Below, piece after piece: positions 1-9,947 of a stretch of 9,947 nt of DNA (position 1 is the stretch's first letter; each line of letters begins with the position of its first letter). The DNA comes from a virus. Lineage: Duplodnaviria > Heunggongvirae > Uroviricota > Caudoviricetes. The notes below the pieces were generated by a model. The model was given only the letters and a program-made list of their open reading frames with translations, was not told the DNA's origin and did not search any database. Where the stretch lies: IMG/VR virus record IMGVR_UViG_2579779116_000007, positions 1-9,947 of that record; one strand, written 5' to 3'. Made by a program: the position numbers and the translations under genes.

Positions 1-564
1 GCTTCATAGCCTGCTTCTCCTTGCCTTTCGGCACGTAAGAGGCTAACCTAGATTTGCCGTTCATAGATTGAGCCTCAGATTAATGTTAAGCGTCTTGCAG
101 GACGCGTAATGTTAACTGGGGCTTTTCTCTATCTGCCTTTTGGTGTTCATGCCTGAGACAGATAGCCTCAAGCACCCGCAGCAATTCTAACTATCCAATA
201 GATCAATGCCAACTTCTTTTCCTGCAACATCTCTCATCATAAGTGACCAAAATTCATCCAATCAGCACAAAAGAAACATTTAAAGCGTGAATGCTACCGA
301 ACGTTCATTTCAATTACATCGTTTTGATTTTTAACAGTTTTTACCTCAACAAATCAAATGGCATTAGCATTCATCATGGAAGAAAGACTGATAAAAATGA
401 TCATTTTCAATGACTTATGATCACACCGGGTATTGCCAAGTCATTCCTTTTACGCCAGGATACCCACAAGTGAGTAGTCGAGGAGAGTTTGCCAATTTTT
501 GCGATATAAATTTCAATGTCCGAAGAACCATTAATTGTTAATTGATTCTGTATAAGGTATTAAC

Positions 565-1662
565 ATGACAATTTCATATATTCCTATTCTGAAAGCGAAA
601 CGTTCTGAGTTATCAGCTTTATCGCAGCTATCCATTGAAAAGAAATCAAAAATTTTGCCATTACTCGAAATTGAACCAGTGCCAATTGACCCTGATTCAG
701 GTATTGCCTTAAAGAGTTATAACGAGACTCTTATAGAGTTCGGAAAGAAAGTCTCAAAATCTTGCTCAGATATGCAAGGTGTTTATATTGATGGATTATT
801 AATTGAAGAGCATTTTATTTCTCCTGAAGATCATTACCCTATAATAAATGCGGTTAATCAAGTTAGAGATATGGGGATAAGAGTTATTCCTGTCAGTTCA
901 CCAACTCGCCCATCTAACTATAAAAGAGCGATTGATGAATTAATGCAGAATGAAATATGCTTGAGATTAACCACGTTAGATCTGGTTAACCCACAATTAA
1001 TAACGCATTACATTAATCATCTGGGAATTCCTTTATCAAATATTGATATAATTATTGACTTAAGAGATGAGTTAACCGAGGATAAACTTAATTCCGGCGA
1101 ACTATATACTTTGGCAATGGGATTGATAAACAATCTGGCGCACCTCAATGAATACAGAAAAGTGATTCTTTCTGGGGGTTCATTTCCTACAGATCTCAGT
1201 GATATTTCTGTTGGTCTATATTCTCAACCTCGAATCGAGTGGATTTTATGGCAGAGTTTAATGAATAGAAAAGAACTTGCCAGAAATGTGATTTATAGTG
1301 ATTATGGAGTACAGCACCCCGACTTTAATAGGCTTTCGACGCGATTCCCTAACGTATCTGCCAGCGTCAGATACTCTGGAGATAATGACTTTTGGGTATT
1401 TCGAGGAAGAGTAGCTAATCGCTTTGGTTATGAACAATATGGTAAACATAGTGAGGATATTCTTGCTCATCGAGAATATTCAGGGCCTACATTCTGTGCG
1501 GGAGATAGAGACATAGAATATTATGCAAACGAGTATCAAGCCTACAAAGCCAATCCCTCTGGTAACTATAAATTTGGTAGCCCAGAGGTATGGCGTAGGA
1601 TTGGGCAAAACCATCACATAACTAAGGTTGTTGAGCAACTCGCCACTCTTTACGGGCTTTAA
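565..1662 (+). CDS. Hypothetical protein, 365 aa, AT-rich cargo gene; possible partner of the adjacent nuclease-like protein (from memory it resembles the uncharacterised sce7725-type partner family, unverified)
   Basis: ATG at 565 preceded by AAGGT (554-558) with a 6-nt spacer; uninterrupted 366-codon frame; codon usage rich in ATA/AGA/TTA, unlike the flanking prophage genes; no P-loop or methyltransferase motif recognised. Confidence 0.75.
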   Translation: MTISYIPILKAKRSELSALSQLSIEKKSKILPLLEIEPVPIDPDSGIALKSYNETLIEFGKKVSKSCSDMQGVYIDGLLIEEHFISPEDHYPIINAVNQVRDMGIRVIPVSSPTRPSNYKRAIDELMQNEICLRLTTLDLVNPQLITHYINHLGIPLSNIDIIIDLRDELTEDKLNSGELYTLAMGLINNLAHLNEYRKVILSGGSFPTDLSDISVGLYSQPRIEWILWQSLMNRKELARNVIYSDYGVQHPDFNRLSTRFPNVSASVRYSGDNDFWVFRGRVANRFGYEQYGKHSEDILAHREYSGPTFCAGDRDIEYYANEYQAYKANPSGNYKFGSPEVWRRIGQNHHITKVVEQLATLYGL

Positions 1663-2200
1663 GTTTAACTCGAACAGCTTCACGAAGCTCGCCAACATCC
1701 ATACTATTGGCGAGTTTTGACCATAAGACGCGTTTAGGTTTATTTTTCAAATTCTGTAGCTCCCCTACATCACTTAATAGGGAAAGCAATTCATCTTTCC
1801 AAAGAAGCATTGTTAAGGAAAGTTTGTCCACTTGTGGATTCAACTTGCTAGTTCGAATTGTTTTTAAATGGATACCTTGCCGTGCACCTTGCGTAACTTG
1901 CTTTATCCCCCACCATGATGGAACTATGCTTAAAGCATCATAAAGATGGCAATCAGAGACAACCAACGTTACTTTATCCATCACTGATGAGTAATGTTGC
2001 ACCTGCGCTGGTAATCTGAGCAAGTTATCACTTTTGCTCTTCAACTCATAACCATGTATAAGCCCATTGATCACTGCTATATCAGCTCTGCTAGCCCCCA
2101 GATTCATCGTAAACTCATCAATGATTAGGGTGTCAGGATCTTTATGATGATCTCTCAAAATCTTGGCATGCACAGCCTTTCTTACATCAATGTCTCTCAT
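1622..2200 (-). CDS. Hypothetical protein, 192 aa, with a putative PD-(D/E)xK nuclease-like core (E...D-x11-E-x-K); possibly sce7726-like (from memory, unverified)
   Basis: ATG at 2200 (weak SD); 193-codon frame; the segment IIDEF...SRADIAVINGLIHGYELKSKSD places acidic residues and a lysine in the spacing typical of restriction-endonuclease-fold active sites; 3' end overlaps the convergent 365-aa gene by 41 bp. Confidence 0.7.
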   Translation of the reverse strand: MRDIDVRKAVHAKILRDHHKDPDTLIIDEFTMNLGASRADIAVINGLIHGYELKSKSDNLLRLPAQVQHYSSVMDKVTLVVSDCHLYDALSIVPSWWGIKQVTQGARQGIHLKTIRTSKLNPQVDKLSLTMLLWKDELLSLLSDVGELQNLKNKPKRVLWSKLANSMDVGELREAVRVKLKARKEWRVAQQP

Positions 2201-2385
2201 ACCATAGTTGCGCTTTCATCGACTCTCTCAAGCCATGATTCTATATCATGGTTCGCATGAATGCCATTTGATATGACCAGTGGTTGAACATTGCACAGAA
2301 AAGTGGATGTGTATTTTAACAAAAGCAATGACGGCTAACCATGTTGGTATGTCGATAAAATGTTTCAACGTAAGCATTATCTGTT

Positions 2386-6494: not shown

Positions 6495-6920
6495 TTAGTG
6501 CATCACCAAGGCATTTCCTGCCGGGCCACCACGATTCATCTGATTGAAACCAGCGATCGCCACTGCGACAAAATCATCAGCGTCTCTCACCAGTCGTTCC
6601 CGCGTCTCCACCAGCTCCCGAAAATAAGCTGAACTGTGGCTGCGCATTCTGGCCACCAGCAAAGGTGGCATTGCCTTTTCGATCGCTGGTAACAACGCCT
6701 GAATTTTTTCAACTGCATCAGGGGTGTCTTTCTCTACCCAGCGGAAAATTTTCTGGGTATTGCGAGCCAGGGCTTCCGGATGGCTGTCGTCATACAGTTC
6801 AGGAAACGTCATACCCAACTCAAAATAAGCCTGGGTTATTCCAGCTGCCGGAACTTTTTCACCATCCGGATGCGCCCAGGCATTCATCGCCATGCGGATG
6901 TGCTCATGTTTGATTTTCAT
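6495..6920 (-). CDS. ydaT: YdaT-family protein (CII-like regulator, historically annotated as a toxin), 141 aa
   Basis: Start MKIKHEH..., length and position after the Cro-like gene match Rac YdaT as I recall it; its ATG overlaps the upstream stop (ATGA). Confidence 0.75.
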   Translation of the reverse strand: MKIKHEHIRMAMNAWAHPDGEKVPAAGITQAYFELGMTFPELYDDSHPEALARNTQKIFRWVEKDTPDAVEKIQALLPAIEKAMPPLLVARMRSHSSAYFRELVETRERLVRDADDFVAVAIAGFNQMNRGGPAGNALVMH

Positions 6921-7219
6921 GAATCAACTCCATCAGATAAGCATGCACTACAATCACCTTCAGCATGAACTACATGTGTTTGCCCCAAACGAATGCCGCT
7001 CGCATACTCAGGCCAAATAAGCTCCCAATCATGGGGTCGTAGCTCCGCCCTACTTACTTGGCCTTCCGTCGCAGATTCGATCATAAGGGCGCGGGTTGGA
7101 GATATAGCTGCTCGTCCAGACGCCATTTGCGATAAGTAAGATGGCGATACACCAAGTCTGGCCGCGAATTTCTTAGCATCACCAACCCTCAATGATTTAA
7201 TAAACTCTTTTAATGTCAT
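6917..7219 (-). CDS. ydaS: Cro-like HTH regulator (YdaS-like), 100 aa, first gene of the leftward early operon
   Basis: ATG at 7219 with GAGGAAGG SD; HTH-like segment AARLGVSPSYLSQMASGRAAIS; divergent from the repressor gene. Confidence 0.7.
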   Translation of the reverse strand: MTLKEFIKSLRVGDAKKFAARLGVSPSYLSQMASGRAAISPTRALMIESATEGQVSRAELRPHDWELIWPEYASGIRLGQTHVVHAEGDCSACLSDGVDS

Positions 7220-7228
7220 ACCTTCCTC

Positions 7229-7316
7229 GGTTTAGTGTTTTTTTGCGAGTTTAGTGTTTAATAAACCATTAAGTCAAGTATTTGCTTGTTTAGTGATTAC
7301 TAAAGATAATTACCAC
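7229..7316. promoter_or_regulatory. Divergent immunity promoter/operator region: three direct GTTTAGTG(T/A)T repeats and two face-to-face sigma70-like promoters
   Basis: Repeats start at 7230, 7249 and 7288 (19 and 39 bp apart). Plus strand: TTGCTT (7282-7287), 17 bp, GATAAT (7305-7310), then 6 nt to the ATG at 7317, implying a leaderless repressor mRNA. Minus strand: TTGACT (reverse complement of 7272-7277), 18 bp, TAAACT. Confidence 0.55.
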
Positions 7317-7688
7317 ATGCAAAAAAAAGAAATTCGCCGTTTACGTCTCAAGGAGTGGTTTAAAGATAAAACTCTGCCACCCAAAGAGAAGAGCTACCTA
7401 TCTCAACTAATGAGTGGGAGAGCATCGTTTGGAGAAAAGGCTGCCAGAAGAATAGAGCAAACATACGGGATGCCGGAAGGGTATCTGGATGCGGAATACG
7501 CAGAACAACCGGAGGTTTCTCCACCACATGCAGGGTTAACGCCTAATCAACTGGAATTATTGCAGATTTTTTCAGCCTTCCCTGAGGATGAGCAACGCCA
7601 GATAATCAGCGAGTTAAAGCAGAAAAAAGAATCAATGGAAGATCTCATAGCGAGATGGATTGCGGCGCAAAAATGCCGCCGCGCCTGA
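7317..7688 (+). CDS. Prophage repressor / TA-associated regulator (CI/DicA-like, PaaR-like), 123 aa
   Basis: HTH-like segment KSYLSQLMSGRASFGEKAARRIEQTYG; no SD, but the promoter geometry predicts a leaderless start at this ATG; occupies the cI/dicA position; no S24 peptidase domain. Confidence 0.7.
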   Translation: MQKKEIRRLRLKEWFKDKTLPPKEKSYLSQLMSGRASFGEKAARRIEQTYGMPEGYLDAEYAEQPEVSPPHAGLTPNQLELLQIFSAFPEDEQRQIISELKQKKESMEDLIARWIAAQKCRRA

Positions 7689-7708
7689 GTTATAAAACCG
7701 GAGGAAAC

Positions 7709-7900
7709 ATGAATAGAGCCCTTTCACCAATGGTTTCTGAATTTGAAACCATTGAACAAGAAAACAGTTACAACGAATGGCTGCGTGCGAAAGTAGCAAC
7801 GAGCCTTGCAGATCCGCGCCCAGCAATTCCCCATGACGAAGTTGAGCGCAGAATGGCAGAACGCTTTGCTAAAATGCGCAAGGAACGGAGCAAGCAGTAA
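7709..7900 (+). CDS. Antitoxin of the ParE-family toxin (PaaA-like), 63 aa
   Basis: GGAGG SD (7700-7704) with a 4-nt spacer; the stop is 1 nt before the toxin ATG; the size matches the 63-aa PaaA2 antitoxin as I recall it. Confidence 0.75.
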   Translation: MNRALSPMVSEFETIEQENSYNEWLRAKVATSLADPRPAIPHDEVERRMAERFAKMRKERSKQ

Positions 7901-7901
7901 A

Positions 7902-8180
7902 ATGTTACCCGTGTTATGGCTTGAAAGCGCAGATACCGACCTAGATGATATAACTAGTTATATTGCTCGTTTCGACATAGATGCGGCTGAACGCTTATGG
8001 CAGCGATTAAGGGGTTGTGTGCTGCCGTTATCCGAACATCCGTATTTATACCCACCAAGCGACAGAGTACCTGGCTTGCGTGAGATTGTAGCCCACCCTA
8101 ACTATATAATTCTATACCGCGTAACAACATCAAGCGTTGAAGTAGTAAACGTGATCCACGCAAGACGCCAGTTTCCCTAA
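7902..8180 (+). CDS. parE: ParE/RelE-superfamily toxin, 92 aa
   Basis: Typical ParE features: N-terminal W...A..DL..I..YIA and C-terminal YRV...VEVVNVIHARR; tightly coupled to the upstream antitoxin. Confidence 0.8.
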   Translation: MLPVLWLESADTDLDDITSYIARFDIDAAERLWQRLRGCVLPLSEHPYLYPPSDRVPGLREIVAHPNYIILYRVTTSSVEVVNVIHARRQFP

Positions 8181-8251
8181 CTTTCACTACCAATAGAAAC
8201 ATAGCAACCGCAACGACTTTATCAAAAGCGTTGTGTTTGTTACGCTCCGCG

Positions 8252-8296
8252 GTTTAGTTTTTACTTGACTTAAGTTTAATGTTTATTAAACTTAAG
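8252..8296 (+). promoter_or_regulatory. Putative promoter/operator for the ydfA-ydfB-ydfC(-dicF) operon: operator-like GTTTAGTT, TTGACT-16-TAAACT, and a perfect 12-bp inverted repeat
   Basis: GTTTAGTT at 8252-8259; TTGACT at 8265-8270 and TAAACT at 8287-8292; inverted repeat CTTAAGTTTAAT-GTTT-ATTAAACTTAAG at 8269-8296; shares TTGACTTAA...GTTTATTAAAC with the minus-strand promoter at 7255-7280. Confidence 0.5.
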
Positions 8297-8471
8297 ATAC
8301 CAACCCACCCCGAGCCACAGAACGCCAGGCAATACTTCGAGTTATCCGGCAGTGGTCAGGGGATAAGTAGCCAGCCCGAGGCGTAAGAACATGACGGCAG
8401 GGTTCAACTTTAATAACTATGCAGCAGGTTTTTGTTCCGCTACCCCAGCGTTAAGGGGAAATGAGGTCAAC

Positions 8472-8627
8472 ATGGATACTATCGATCTTGGCAACAACGA
8501 ATCTCTGGTGTGCGGCGTGTTTCCCAACCAGGACGGCACATTCACCGCGATGACGTATACCAAAAGCAAAACGTTTAAAACCGAATCTGGAGCGCGTCGC
8601 TGGCTGGAAAGAAATTCAGGTGGGTGA
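8472..8627 (+). CDS. ydfA: YdfA-like small protein, 51 aa
   Basis: ATG at 8472 with GAGG SD and a 5-nt spacer (the ORF-track start at 8391 lacks an SD); size and position match ydfA of the Qin dicB operon as I recall it. Confidence 0.65.
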   Translation: MDTIDLGNNESLVCGVFPNQDGTFTAMTYTKSKTFKTESGARRWLERNSGG

Positions 8628-8628
8628 T

Positions 8629-8757
8629 ATGGATTTCGACACAATCATGGAAAAGGCTTACGAAGAATACTTCGAAGGCCTTGCCGAAGGCGAAGAAACT
8701 CTCAGCTTCAGCGAATTTAAACAGGCGCTTTCCAGCTCGGCAAAATCTAGCGGCTGA
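8629..8757 (+). CDS. ydfB: YdfB-like small protein, 42 aa (not in the ORF track)
   Basis: ATG at 8629, one nt after the ydfA stop, with AGGTGG SD; translates MDFDTIMEKAYEEYFEGLAEGEETLSFSEFKQALSSSAKSSG. Confidence 0.6.
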   Translation: MDFDTIMEKAYEEYFEGLAEGEETLSFSEFKQALSSSAKSSG

Positions 8758-8786
8758 TAAGCGAAACAGCACCGCGAGGAATCAGT

Positions 8787-9005
8787 ATGCAGAAACGAGA
8801 ACCCGTCATCATCGCGCCAGACTATACCGATGATGAGCTTTATGAGTGGATGCGCCAGAAAATTAATGCAGCGCAGGATCTGAAATGGGCCAATGAAGCC
8901 AGGGCTAAGCAGGCTGAAAATCTGTCCGCTCTGGAGCAGGATATCACCAGGCTGGAAAAAGCAGCGGCATTAAGCATTGCCAGAATGATTACATACCCGC
9001 GTTAA
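8787..9005 (+). CDS. ydfC: YdfC-like small protein, 72 aa
   Basis: ATG at 8787 with GAGGA SD and a 6-nt spacer; size and order match ydfC as I recall it. Confidence 0.65.
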   Translation: MQKREPVIIAPDYTDDELYEWMRQKINAAQDLKWANEARAKQAENLSALEQDITRLEKAAALSIARMITYPR

Positions 9006-9027
9006 TAGCTAACCAACGAGGCTAATA

Positions 9028-9348
9028 ATGGAATTTAAAGATTTACCAATGCAATTCCAGGAAATGGCAGCGAATATAGTTCGTTCCCAACTGGCGACTC
9101 TTGACCTGAGTACCGTAGAAAAAGAAACCATCGATACTATATCCGGTAACGTGCGTCGTGCCTTTATCGGTCTGTACGAAGAGAAGCAGCTCTCTGATAA
9201 CCAGGATTTACATGAAAAATACTTCCTGGAACTAATGGACATCATTGATAAGGGGTTTGGCTTGTTAATGAAAAAGAAAGGGATTCGAATAGAACCCCTT
9301 GAAAATTACTTTGCAACAAAAAGCATTAATTCTTTTGATTCAAAATAA
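9028..9348 (+). CDS. Hypothetical protein, 106 aa, AT-rich, acidic and helical in character
   Basis: ATG at 9028 with GAGG SD; clean frame; 3' end overlaps the convergent 91-aa ORF by 23 bp. Confidence 0.55.
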   Translation: MEFKDLPMQFQEMAANIVRSQLATLDLSTVEKETIDTISGNVRRAFIGLYEEKQLSDNQDLHEKYFLELMDIIDKGFGLLMKKKGIRIEPLENYFATKSINSFDSK

Positions 9349-9601
9349 GAGAATTAATTACAGACTTAACATGCTCTTTCTCATGATTGAAGCTCTCATG
9401 ATTGAAAGTGCCGGGTTGAAGCGAGTCGATATAATCAACAAGACTCTGTCGTACGACTTCATTTTTATCCATAACAGATGCAAGAAATGAAATTGCTAAA
9501 AGAGTTATATCACTACGCGCCGCAGCATGCTGCAATGCTTTATCAAAATTATTAATCTGGCGTATCAGGGAGTTAATGATTTCATCATTTTCAGTCGACA
9601 T
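9326..9601 (-). CDS. Hypothetical protein, 91 aa
   Basis: ATG at 9601 preceded by AGGAGGG SD; the ORF-track frame extends 111 codons further upstream into GC-rich DNA with no start signal, so I truncated it. Confidence 0.55.
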   Translation of the reverse strand: MSTENDEIINSLIRQINNFDKALQHAAARSDITLLAISFLASVMDKNEVVRQSLVDYIDSLQPGTFNHESFNHEKEHVKSVINSLILNQKN

Positions 9602-9935
9602 TTCACCCTCCTGAGGGTTGGTGATTAAGGAGTTCTCCACGGGTGAGGTGGAGTGCGTGCGCCGGACACGGGTGAGCATCCGGCACTGACAGTTTACTGA
9701 AAGGATATTTCCCTGAAAAATCAGACCATAACGCGAAAGCGCACGGCGAGGTAGCTGGTTCATAGATAGCCTGTCGTTAAATTTTCGTCGACCGTGCGCT
9801 TCCGGTTGTGGCACTCCGCGAAATGGCGCGGCGGTAAGTATGGCGGGGTTATTCCTTCCCCGTTGAGGACACCGGGTTGTCAGGTTGACCATACGCTTAA
9901 GTGACAACCCCGCTGCAACGCCCTCTGTTATCAAT

Positions 9936-9947
9936 TTTCTGGTGACG
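9936..9947 (+). ncRNA. dicF: Probable 5' end of the DicF sRNA, truncated by the window edge
   Basis: The terminal TTTCTGGTGACG matches the start of DicF as I recall it (TTTCTGGTGACGTTTGGCGG...) and lies where expected downstream of ydfC; only 12 nt are visible. Confidence 0.4.

What the first reader, a model, noticed from the sequence alone, without database searches (positions are those of the whole stretch)
8252..8296. Second copy of the immunity promoter/operator upstream of ydfA, overlapping a perfect 12-bp palindrome
The segment TTGACTTAAGTTTAATGTTTATTAAAC closely resembles the minus-strand promoter at 7255-7280 (shared TTGACTTAA and GTTTATTAAAC) and is preceded by GTTTAGTT, an operator-like motif. 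A perfect inverted repeat CTTAAGTTTAAT-GTTT-ATTAAACTTAAG overlaps the -35 to -10 interval. This suggests the ydfA-ydfB-ydfC-dicF operon is repressed by the same protein, as DicA represses the dicB operon in K-12, with the palindrome a possible second binding site.
Basis: partly seen in the sequence, partly recalled or inferred. Interest (0 to 1): 0.45.

Follow-up and report, generated by a model that had tools for sequence, protein, structure and literature searches.

The report
Known prophage PL promoter with repressor operators

Summary
8269-8296 is a perfect 12-4-12 palindrome (expected 0.01 per shuffled window). 8262-8273 repeats 12 nt of the divergent promoter at 7269-7280 in inverted orientation. 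Both promoters use TTGACT and TAAACT.

The window's immunity region is that of prophage CP-933P of E. coli O157:H7 EDL933:
- the operator region 7190-7330 is identical apart from one base inside ydaS;
- PaaR2 is 120/123 identical and YdaS 99/100.

Jurenas et al. 2021 (PMC8630535) cloned the matching fragment (their primers map to window 8181-8298) as "PL933P". Both PaaR2 and YdaS repressed it about 100-fold.

- The repressor is PaaR2, not DicA.
- The palindrome is not a separate kind of site. Its core, GTTTAATGTTTATTAAAC (8274-8291), is an 18-bp operator of the same family as 8252-8269, 7249-7266 and 7288-7305.
- The outer four bases that make the palindrome perfect are private to this window: T8293 occurs in 1 of 29 unique sequences and G8296 in 2 of 29.
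- Only the first ~11 nt of dicF lie in the window.

The layout, with a -10 TAAACT embedded in a GTTTA-N8-TAAAC operator, recurs downstream of PaaR2 homologues down to ~48% identity. Novelty: already known.

The parts
8252..8269 (.). Operator 1 of the PL region (18-bp inverted-repeat type, GTTTAGTTTTTACTTGAC). Its right half overlaps the -35 hexamer.
   Evidence: It matches GTTTARTNNNNAYTAAAC with 2 mismatches and belongs to repeat family D1. It is nearly invariant in 29 unique relatives. An equivalent site overlaps the -35 in the ~50%-identity class. Which of the published names OL1-3 it corresponds to is inferred, because the paper's Fig. S2 is not readable here.
8274..8291 (.). Operator 2 of the PL region (GTTTAATGTTTATTAAAC, 14 of 18 positions symmetric). 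It covers the promoter spacer and 5 of the 6 bases of the -10.
   Evidence: It matches the operator pattern with 0 mismatches. It starts 22 bp after operator 1, the same spacing as in the diverged locus L119. GTTTA-N8-TAAACT is found downstream of the repressor gene in 74 of 80 loci that encode a PaaR2 homologue.
8269..8296 (.). Perfect 12-4-12 palindrome CTTAAGTTTAAT-GTTT-ATTAAACTTAAG. The inner 8-bp arms are the operator 2 core; the outer 4 bp are a private extension.
   Evidence: (I6). T8293 occurs in 1 of 29 unique sequences and G8296 in 2 of 29. None of 54 copies has the window's version. No E. coli genome matches the 181-bp query above 97.8%.
8265..8270 (+). -35 hexamer TTGACT of PL
   Evidence: Identical to the -35 of the divergent PR promoter, as stated for PL933P in PMC8630535.
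8287..8292 (+). -10 hexamer TAAACT of PL (16-bp spacer). The TSS is predicted near 8299; this is inferred, not mapped.
   Evidence: It is the only + strand promoter-like site inside the fragment 8181-8298, which is equivalent to the fragment that drove gfp.
7230..7305 (.). OR region with the same operator family: 7230-7247 (half-site only), 7249-7266 and 7288-7305.
   Evidence: This stretch is identical to EDL933, where DNase I footprints of PaaR2 and YdaS were obtained.
7248..7277 (-). PR promoter (TTGACT-18-TAAACT), which drives ydaS-ydaT
   Evidence: In the paper the 5' RACE start for ydaS is in line with the predicted PR933P.
7282..7310 (+). PRM-like promoter TTGCTT-17-GATAAT. The -10 ends 7 nt before the paaR2 ATG, giving a leaderless mRNA.
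   Evidence: Hexamers read. Leaderless paaR2 is shown in PMC8630535. The hexamer assignment is mine; the -35 matches only 3 of 6, so the scan did not list it.
7317..7688 (+). paaR2, the CI-like repressor
   Evidence: 120 of 123 residues identical to EDL933 PaaR2, with all three differences at residues 66-76. PDB 7nkv/8c3k/8c3l cover the N-terminal domain.
6917..7219 (-). ydaS, the Cro-like repressor
   Evidence: 99 of 100 residues identical to EDL933 YdaS. Pfam YdaS_toxin/HTH_3.
7709..8180 (+). paaA2 (7709-7900) and parE2 (7902-8180), a toxin-antitoxin cargo between the repressor gene and PL
   Evidence: Pfam PaaA2 at 1e-19 and ParE_toxin at 1.9e-16. The pair is absent from ~50%-identity relatives, where PL follows the repressor gene by ~270 bp.
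8472..9005 (+). ydfA (8472-8627), ydfB (8629-8757) and ydfC (8787-9005), the first genes transcribed from PL
   Evidence: RefSeq annotation of the 99.6%-identical relative. DUF1391 hit. No + strand terminator-like site is found in 6800-9200.
9937..9947 (+). The first ~11 nt of dicF, cut off by the window end
   Evidence: DicF (Rfam, 76.7 bits) lies at L001 7082-7133. Window 9602-9947 aligns to L001 6747-7092. The sequences are compared.

Best explanation
8252-8296 is the PL/OL element of a CP-933P-type defective lambdoid prophage. It is a sigma-70 promoter (TTGACT-16-TAAACT) that reads away from the immunity genes into ydfA-ydfB-ydfC-dicF(-dicB). Two adjacent 18-bp operators of the family GTTTAGTnA|TnACTAAAC lie over it: operator 1 (8252-8269) covers the -35, and operator 2 (8274-8291) covers the spacer and the -10.

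The CI-like repressor PaaR2, and at higher level the Cro-like YdaS, bind these sites and the homologous sites at OR (7230-7305). Because the -10 hexamer is itself part of an operator half-site (TAAAC), binding keeps RNA polymerase off the promoter. This holds the division-inhibitor operon silent.

What is shown and what is inferred:
- Shown by others on the near-identical EDL933 element: the fragment has promoter activity, and PaaR2 and YdaS each repress it ~100-fold.
- Shown here: identity of the element, operator family membership, statistics, and conservation of the layout across diverged relatives.
- Inferred: the exact TSS (~8299), which protein contacts which site, cooperativity between the two sites, and OL-OR looping by octameric PaaR2 over ~1 kb.
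- The four outer base pairs that make the palindrome perfect are most likely neutral private substitutions.
For: - Literature: PMC8630535 describes PL933P, OL1-3, 18-bp inverted repeats with consensus half-site GTTTAGTAA, and gfp reporter repression by PaaR2 and YdaS.
- Plasmid map: its order, PL933P-parE2-paaA2-paaR2-PRM-PR-ydaS-ydaT, matches the window.
- Primers: the cloning primers map to window 8181-8201 (exact) and 8277-8298 (2 mismatches), and exactly to EDL933.
- Same immunity region as EDL933: the OR region is identical apart from one base inside ydaS, PaaR2 is 98% identical, YdaS is 99% identical, and the YdaT OM site is exact at 6910-6927.
- Operator family statistics.
- Promoter hexamers are identical at PL and PR.
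- Layout conserved: GTTTA-N8-TAAACT with a -35-like hexamer 16-18 bp upstream occurs downstream of PaaR2 homologues in 74 of 80 loci, across at least five sequence classes down to ~48% protein identity. By my own calculation, about 0.2 chance hits are expected in the 398 kb searched, against 206 found.
- Mosaic joint: homology to phages of other immunity types starts at ~8297, the end of the element.
Against: - No direct binding data (EMSA or footprint) exist for the PL region, even in the paper; only reporter assays were done.
- The TSS of PL is unmapped.
- The window differs from the tested EDL933 sequence at 8263, 8293 and 8296, so this exact variant is untested.
- Conservation within the 98% class is high everywhere (0.87-0.99 mean column identity), so it cannot by itself single out the operators.
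Confidence: 0.9

Rival explanations
1. The 12-bp perfect palindrome is a distinct site for another factor (or a cruciform), functionally separate from the GTTTAGT operators.
For: The perfect 12-4-12 symmetry is statistically unusual: 0.01 expected per window. Both outer arms are the self-complementary hexamer CTTAAG.
Against: The outer four pairs are not conserved. T8293 is unique to the window and G8296 is rare. None of 54 related copies has the full palindrome, while the inner 8-bp arms match the operator consensus with 0 mismatches. A site that exists in one strain only is unlikely to be a designed element.
Confidence: 0.04
2. The palindrome acts at the RNA level, as a terminator or stabilising hairpin at the 3' end of the paaR2-paaA2-parE2 transcript.
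For: It lies 89 nt after the parE2 stop. As RNA it folds to -10.4 kcal/mol, z = -4.7 against shuffles.
Against: The hairpin is followed by AUACCAACCC, with no U tract. The terminator scan finds nothing on the + strand. The stem is almost pure A-U, and in relatives only 8 pairs are perfect. The symmetry is fully explained by a dimer-binding operator, and the same DNA drives a reporter as a promoter.
Confidence: 0.03
3. The element is the K-12-type dicBp and is controlled by DicA, making it homoimmune with Qin.
For: Same position upstream of ydfA and the same downstream operon. The K-12 operators share the 7-4-7 layout and a TTAGT core. The PaaR2 C-terminal part is 31% identical to DicA.
Against: The half-site differs: GTTTAGT here against TGTTAGT in K-12. 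The promoter differs: TTGACC-17-TAATCT in K-12. The N-terminal DNA-binding parts do not align. The intergenic DNA is not alignable apart from the last ~50 bp before ydfA (read by eye).
Confidence: 0.03

Closest known systems
PL933P / OL1-3 of cryptic prophage CP-933P, E. coli O157:H7 EDL933 (Jurenas et al. 2021, mBio, PMC8630535)
   Same: - Same locus, flanking genes and orientation.
- The -35 and -10 hexamers are identical.
- 42 of 45 bases are identical over 8252-8296.
- The repressors are 98-99% identical.
- The cloned reporter fragment corresponds to window 8181-8298.
   Different: There are three substitutions: A8263 (G in EDL933), T8293 (A) and G8296 (A). The last two extend the palindrome from 8 perfect pairs (10 of 12) to 12 of 12. 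Here ydfA and ydfB are intact downstream, whereas the EDL933 annotation lacks them.
Bacteriophage lambda PL/OL
   Same: - An early-left promoter downstream of the cI-like gene and of a cargo module (rexAB in lambda, paaA2-parE2 here).
- Operators of the same family as at OR.
- Repressed by both the CI-like and the Cro-like protein.
- The repressor forms octamers, so looping is plausible.
   Different: - No sequence relationship.
- 18-bp operators with half-site GTTTAGTAA.
- Two clear sites here rather than three.
- OL and OR are ~1 kb apart, against ~2.4 kb in lambda (the lambda figure is from general knowledge).
- PaaR2 is much shorter than lambda CI; whether it responds to RecA was not examined here.
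- No N gene or nutL was recognised downstream.
dicBp and the DicA operators of prophage Qin, E. coli K-12 (PMC10448788; PMC3441716)
   Same: - Same position upstream of ydfABC-dicF-dicB.
- It is the PL analogue, repressed by the CI-like protein (22-fold derepression in a dicA deletion).
- An operator overlaps the spacer and the -10.
- The operators have a 7-4-7 palindromic layout with a TTAGT core.
   Different: The immunity specificity is different: TGTTAGT against GTTTAGT half-sites, a different promoter sequence, and repressors related only in the C-terminal part. K-12 has no toxin-antitoxin pair between the repressor gene and the promoter, and its leader is shorter.

Membership tests
PL933P/OL of CP-933P-type prophages | Lies immediately 3' of parE2 in the order ydaT-ydaS / paaR2-paaA2-parE2 / PL | tested here: met
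   ORFs and Pfam hits, annotation of relatives, and the plasmid description in the paper.
PL933P/OL of CP-933P-type prophages | Sequence identity to the cloned EDL933 fragment | tested here: met
   The forward primer maps exactly at 8181-8201 and the reverse primer at 8277-8298 with 2 mismatches. Identity is 94.4% over 181 bp (H66); the alignment is.
PL933P/OL of CP-933P-type prophages | -35 and -10 hexamers identical to those of PR | tested here: met
   TTGACT and TAAACT at both promoters.
PL933P/OL of CP-933P-type prophages | Cognate repressors PaaR2 and YdaS encoded alongside | tested here: met
   120/123 and 99/100 identity to the EDL933 proteins.
PL933P/OL of CP-933P-type prophages | Repression by PaaR2 and YdaS in vivo | not testable with these tools
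   Shown for the EDL933 sequence (~100-fold). This window's three-substitution variant has not been tested.
Lambdoid PL/OL-type operator-promoter (functional class) | Operators of the same family as at OR, overlapping the promoter hexamers | tested here: met
   The four best matches to the 18-bp pattern are two at OR and two at PL. They overlap the -35 and -10.
Lambdoid PL/OL-type operator-promoter (functional class) | Layout conserved with diverged repressors | tested here: met
   74 of 80 loci with PaaR2 homologues (48-99% identity) carry GTTTA-N8-TAAACT downstream of the repressor gene.
Lambdoid PL/OL-type operator-promoter (functional class) | Long-range OL-OR looping by an oligomeric repressor | not testable with these tools
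   PaaR2 forms octamers according to the paper. The ~1 kb separation was measured here. Looping has not been tested anywhere.
K-12 Qin dicBp / DicA operator | DicA-type operator half-site (TGTTAGT) and DicA repressor | tested here: not met
   The half-site here is GTTTAGT. The repressor aligns to DicA only over 64 C-terminal residues at 31% identity.
Intrinsic (Rho-independent) terminator | G+C-rich stem followed by a U tract | tested here: not met
   The stem is A/U-rich, there is no U run, and no + strand terminator hit was found.

The most novel reading that the evidence does not exclude
The two private substitutions (T8293, G8296) turn the conserved 8-bp-arm operator into a perfect 12-bp-arm palindrome in the discriminator region just after the -10. 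They might change repressor affinity or promoter strength, and so shift the set-point of the PaaR2/YdaS bistable switch that controls dicF/dicB in this strain.
Probability: 0.06. Interest if true: 0.25.

Novelty: already known. Interest (0 to 1): 0.1.

Why it matters
It matters little as a discovery. The promoter, its operators and its repression by PaaR2 and YdaS were published in 2021 for an almost identical prophage.

The check still adds three modest points:
1. It links PL933P explicitly to the ydfABC-dicF-dicB division-inhibitor operon. The paper stated that no function could be assigned to the ORFs downstream.
2. It shows that the design with the -10 inside an operator half-site is shared by PaaR2-like immunity regions down to ~48% repressor identity, with or without the toxin-antitoxin cargo.
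3. It shows that the eye-catching perfect palindrome is a strain-private extension of the real operator.

Tried and rejected
- **Rfam on the window.** Neither the gathering threshold nor E<=1 on 8150-9947 gave a DicF or other RNA hit near the element. DicF was then located in relatives, and its first ~11 nt at the window end.
- **Exact-pattern scan of genome contigs** for the PL core: 0 hits. The one-genome-per-species collection apparently lacks this prophage. The viral-contig scan gave 47 loci instead.
- **Structured RNA in the 8299-8480 leader.** The fold is no better than shuffles (z = +0.65), so this was dropped.
- **Terminator reading of the palindrome.** Rejected: no U tract and no scan hit.
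- **Papers on PDB 7nkv/8c3k/8c3l.** Nothing relevant is held in the library.
- **Paper's Fig. S2 and Table S1.** They are not readable as text, so the published names OL1-3 could not be mapped base by base onto the window.
- **Conservation within the 98% class.** It is too uniform to delimit the operators. The diverged classes were used instead.
- **BLAST in Python against EDL933 and K-12 loci.** It failed because I looked for one FASTA file per locus and found none for L002 or L008. Alignment tools were used instead.

Full report
**1. The observation**

The stretch 8252-8296 reads GTTTAGTTTTTACTTGACTTAAGTTTAATGTTTATTAAACTTAAG.
- a perfect inverted repeat, 8269-8280 / 8285-8296, with a 4-nt spacer (I6);
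- an exact 12-nt inverted match between 8262-8273 and 7269-7280, TACTTGACTTAA (I7), inside a 24-nt stretch that is 79% complementary (I1);
- an 11-nt direct-repeat family, GTTTAGTGTTT, with copies at 7230, 7249, 7288, 8252 and 8274 (D1).

The consensus scan finds TTGACT-16-TAAACT on the + strand (8265-8292) and TTGACT-18-TAAACT on the - strand (7277-7248).

These features exceed chance. A perfect 12-bp-arm inverted repeat is expected 0.01 times per shuffled window. The 18-bp pattern GTTTARTNNNNAYTAAAC with up to 3 mismatches gives 8 hits against 1.5 expected, and the four best fall at 7249, 7288, 8252 and 8274.

**2. Context**

The window is the immunity region of a Qin/CP-933P-like lambdoid prophage.
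- On the - strand lie ydaT (6495-6920, Pfam YdaT_toxin) and ydaS (6917-7219, YdaS/HTH_3), followed by replication genes.
- On the + strand lie a 123-aa protein (7317-7688), PaaA2 (7709-7900) and ParE (7902-8180).
- After the finding come ydfA (DUF1391), ydfB and ydfC.

The PaaA2/ParE pair identifies the three-gene paaR2-paaA2-parE2 module of prophage CP-933P.

**3. It is a published element**

Jurenas et al. 2021 (mBio, PMC8630535) showed that PaaR2, YdaS and YdaT are the CI, Cro and CII analogues of CP-933P.
- They footprinted PaaR2 and YdaS on the paaR2-ydaS intergenic region.
- They defined 18-bp inverted repeats with consensus half-site GTTTAGTAA.
- They cloned it before gfp and saw ~100-fold repression by PaaR2 and by YdaS. 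Low PaaR2 levels already repressed it.

Their text says "upstream of the RAE2 locus". However, the plasmid description (PL933P-parE2-paaA2-paaR2-PRM-PR-ydaS-ydaT) and the primers settle the position:
- F-PL-SacI matches window 8181-8201 exactly.
- R-PL-BamHI matches 8277-8298 with two mismatches, and matches EDL933 exactly.

The cloned fragment therefore corresponds to window 8181-8298 and contains the whole finding.

The window's OR region (7190-7330) is identical to EDL933 apart from one base inside ydaS. PaaR2 is 120/123 identical, with all three changes in the linker at residues 66-76, and YdaS is 99/100 identical. The YdaT primary site TTGATTN6AATCAA (PMC9986795) is present exactly at 6910-6927. 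The experimental results therefore transfer to this window with little risk.

**4. Anatomy**

Read as 18-bp sites, the four good matches are:

| Coordinates | Sequence (7-4-7) |
|---|---|
| 7288-7305 | GTTTAGT GATT ACTAAAG |
| 7249-7266 | GTTTAGT GTTT AATAAAC |
| 8252-8269 | GTTTAGT TTTT ACTTGAC |
| 8274-8291 | GTTTAAT GTTT ATTAAAC |

Their eight half-sites give GTTTAGTnA, which is the published consensus.

At PL, operator 1 overlaps the -35 (8265-8270). Operator 2 covers the spacer and five of the six -10 bases (8287-8292), so the -10 TAAACT is itself the operator half-site TAAAC plus T. The same holds at PR, where the -10 (7253-7248) overlaps the left half-site of 7249-7266.

The "palindrome" is operator 2 plus flanks, not a different kind of site.

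**5. The perfect palindrome is private**

An alignment with EDL933 and six other E. coli genomes, sampled across the hit ranking, shows the inner arms AGTTTAAT/ATTAAACT nearly invariant (one genome carries a single change) and the outer bases variable.
- EDL933 has ...AAACTAAAAAT where the window has ...AAACTTAAGAT.
- Among 29 unique sequences, drawn from 56 loci found through the PaaR2 protein or through BLAST (so not selected on the operator itself), T8293 occurs only in the window and G8296 in two.
- None of 54 copies collected by the pattern scan has the full palindrome.
- No complete E. coli genome matches the 181-bp query above 97.8%.

The two substitutions lie between the -10 and the predicted start. 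I regard them as neutral. A functional effect is not excluded, but nothing supports one.

**6. Comparative support independent of the paper**

PaaR2 homologues in IMG/VR fall into classes of ~98%, ~74% and ~48-52% identity. GTTTA-N8-TAAACT, with a -35-like hexamer 16-18 bp upstream, lies on the + strand downstream of the repressor gene in 74 of 80 loci. Three of the six exceptions hold too little downstream DNA.

At least five different sequence versions occur:

| Class | Sequence |
|---|---|
| window class | TTGACT-16-TAAACT |
| 74% class | TTGACT GTTTAGTTTATTTTTGTA TAAACT |
| L119 class | TTTACT TTTAGTTTATCAATTAC TAAACT |
| L123 | TTGACT AAAAGTTTATAGTTTAA TAAACT |
| L124 class | TTTACA ... 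GTTTAGTAATGAGTAAACT |

In L119 an upstream site, GTTTAATTTTTACTTTAC, sits 22 bp before operator 2, exactly as in the window.

The pattern occurs 206 times in the 398 kb searched. By my own calculation, about 0.2 chance hits would be expected.

In the ~50% class, PL follows the repressor gene by ~270 bp with no ORF of at least 40 aa between them. The toxin-antitoxin pair is therefore optional cargo, as rexAB is in lambda; PMC9986795 also notes this.

Homology to phages of other immunity types begins at ~8297. The element thus ends at a mosaic joint next to the predicted start.

**7. Relation to K-12 dicBp**

In Qin, dicBp (TTGACC-17-TAATCT) lies between dicA and ydfA. It carries DicA-type sites, TGTTAGT-N4-..., one of which overlaps the spacer and the -10. 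Deleting dicA derepresses it 22-fold (PMC10448788).

The design is the same, but the specificity differs: TGTTAGT against GTTTAGT. PaaR2 aligns to DicA only in the C-terminal 64 residues, at 31% identity.

dicF itself is almost entirely outside the window. Rfam finds it in the closest relative at a position that maps to window ~9937 onward, and the window ends with TTCTGGTGACG, its first 11 nt.

**8. Rivals**

- **RNA hairpin or terminator.** The fold is -10.4 kcal/mol, but there is no U tract and no terminator hit.
- **A separate factor site.** This is undermined because the outer arms are private to the window.
- **Chance.** Excluded by the statistics above.
- **Structured leader.** The 8299-8480 leader folds no better than shuffles.

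**9. Verdict**

The element is already known (PL933P/OL). What remains untested anywhere is direct footprinting at OL, the PL start site, OL-OR looping, and the effect of this window's private substitutions.

Noticed in passing
window 2-177 (-): A sok antisense RNA of a hok/sok type I toxin-antitoxin locus (Rfam 112 bits). hokD is annotated next to it in the closest relative.
   Followed up: partly
window 190-2385: This segment has no counterpart in the closest relative (L001). It carries a Beta_protein (PF14350) ORF at 565-1662 (+) and a 192-aa ORF on the opposite strand at 1622-2200 (-), whose 3' end overlaps it and which has no Pfam hit. It may be a cargo insertion beside hok/sok.
   Followed up: partly
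window 7728-7754: A perfect 10-bp inverted repeat, CAATGGTTTC-N7-GAAACCATTG, lies inside the 5' end of paaA2 (expected 0.11 per shuffled window). Its function is unknown.
   Followed up: no
window 6910-6927: An exact copy of the published YdaT primary site TTGATTN6AATCAA (TTGATTTTCATGAATCAA) sits at the ydaS/ydaT junction.
   Followed up: yes
window 7282-7319: A PRM-like promoter, TTGCTT-17-GATAAT, ends 7 nt before the paaR2 ATG. This is consistent with the published leaderless paaR2 mRNA. Operator 7288-7305 fills its spacer.
   Followed up: partly
window 8299-8326: A C-rich, G-poor tract, ACCAACCCACCCCGAGCCACAGAACGCC, follows the predicted PL start directly. A near-identical tract also follows PL in the 74% PaaR class. 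It looks like a possible Rho-loading site, but this was not tested. The whole leader folds no better than shuffles.
   Followed up: partly
window 9072-9601 and 9326-9934 (-): This segment, between the ORF after ydfC and dicF, cannot be aligned to the closest relative. It contains a 202-aa - strand ORF with no Pfam hit.
   Followed up: no
window 9937-9947: The window ends inside dicF; only its first ~11 nt are present.
   Followed up: yes
L119 2872-3180; L106 ~3890: PaaR2 homologues at ~50% identity have PL ~270 bp after the repressor gene with no toxin-antitoxin pair. The 74% class has ~1 kb between them. The cargo between the repressor gene and PL is therefore variable.
   Followed up: partly
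window 7317-7530 (protein residues 1-71): PDB entries 7nkv, 8c3k and 8c3l ("Phage repressor protein CI") match the PaaR2 N-terminal domain at E = 1e-39. No paper describing them was found in the library.
   Followed up: partly
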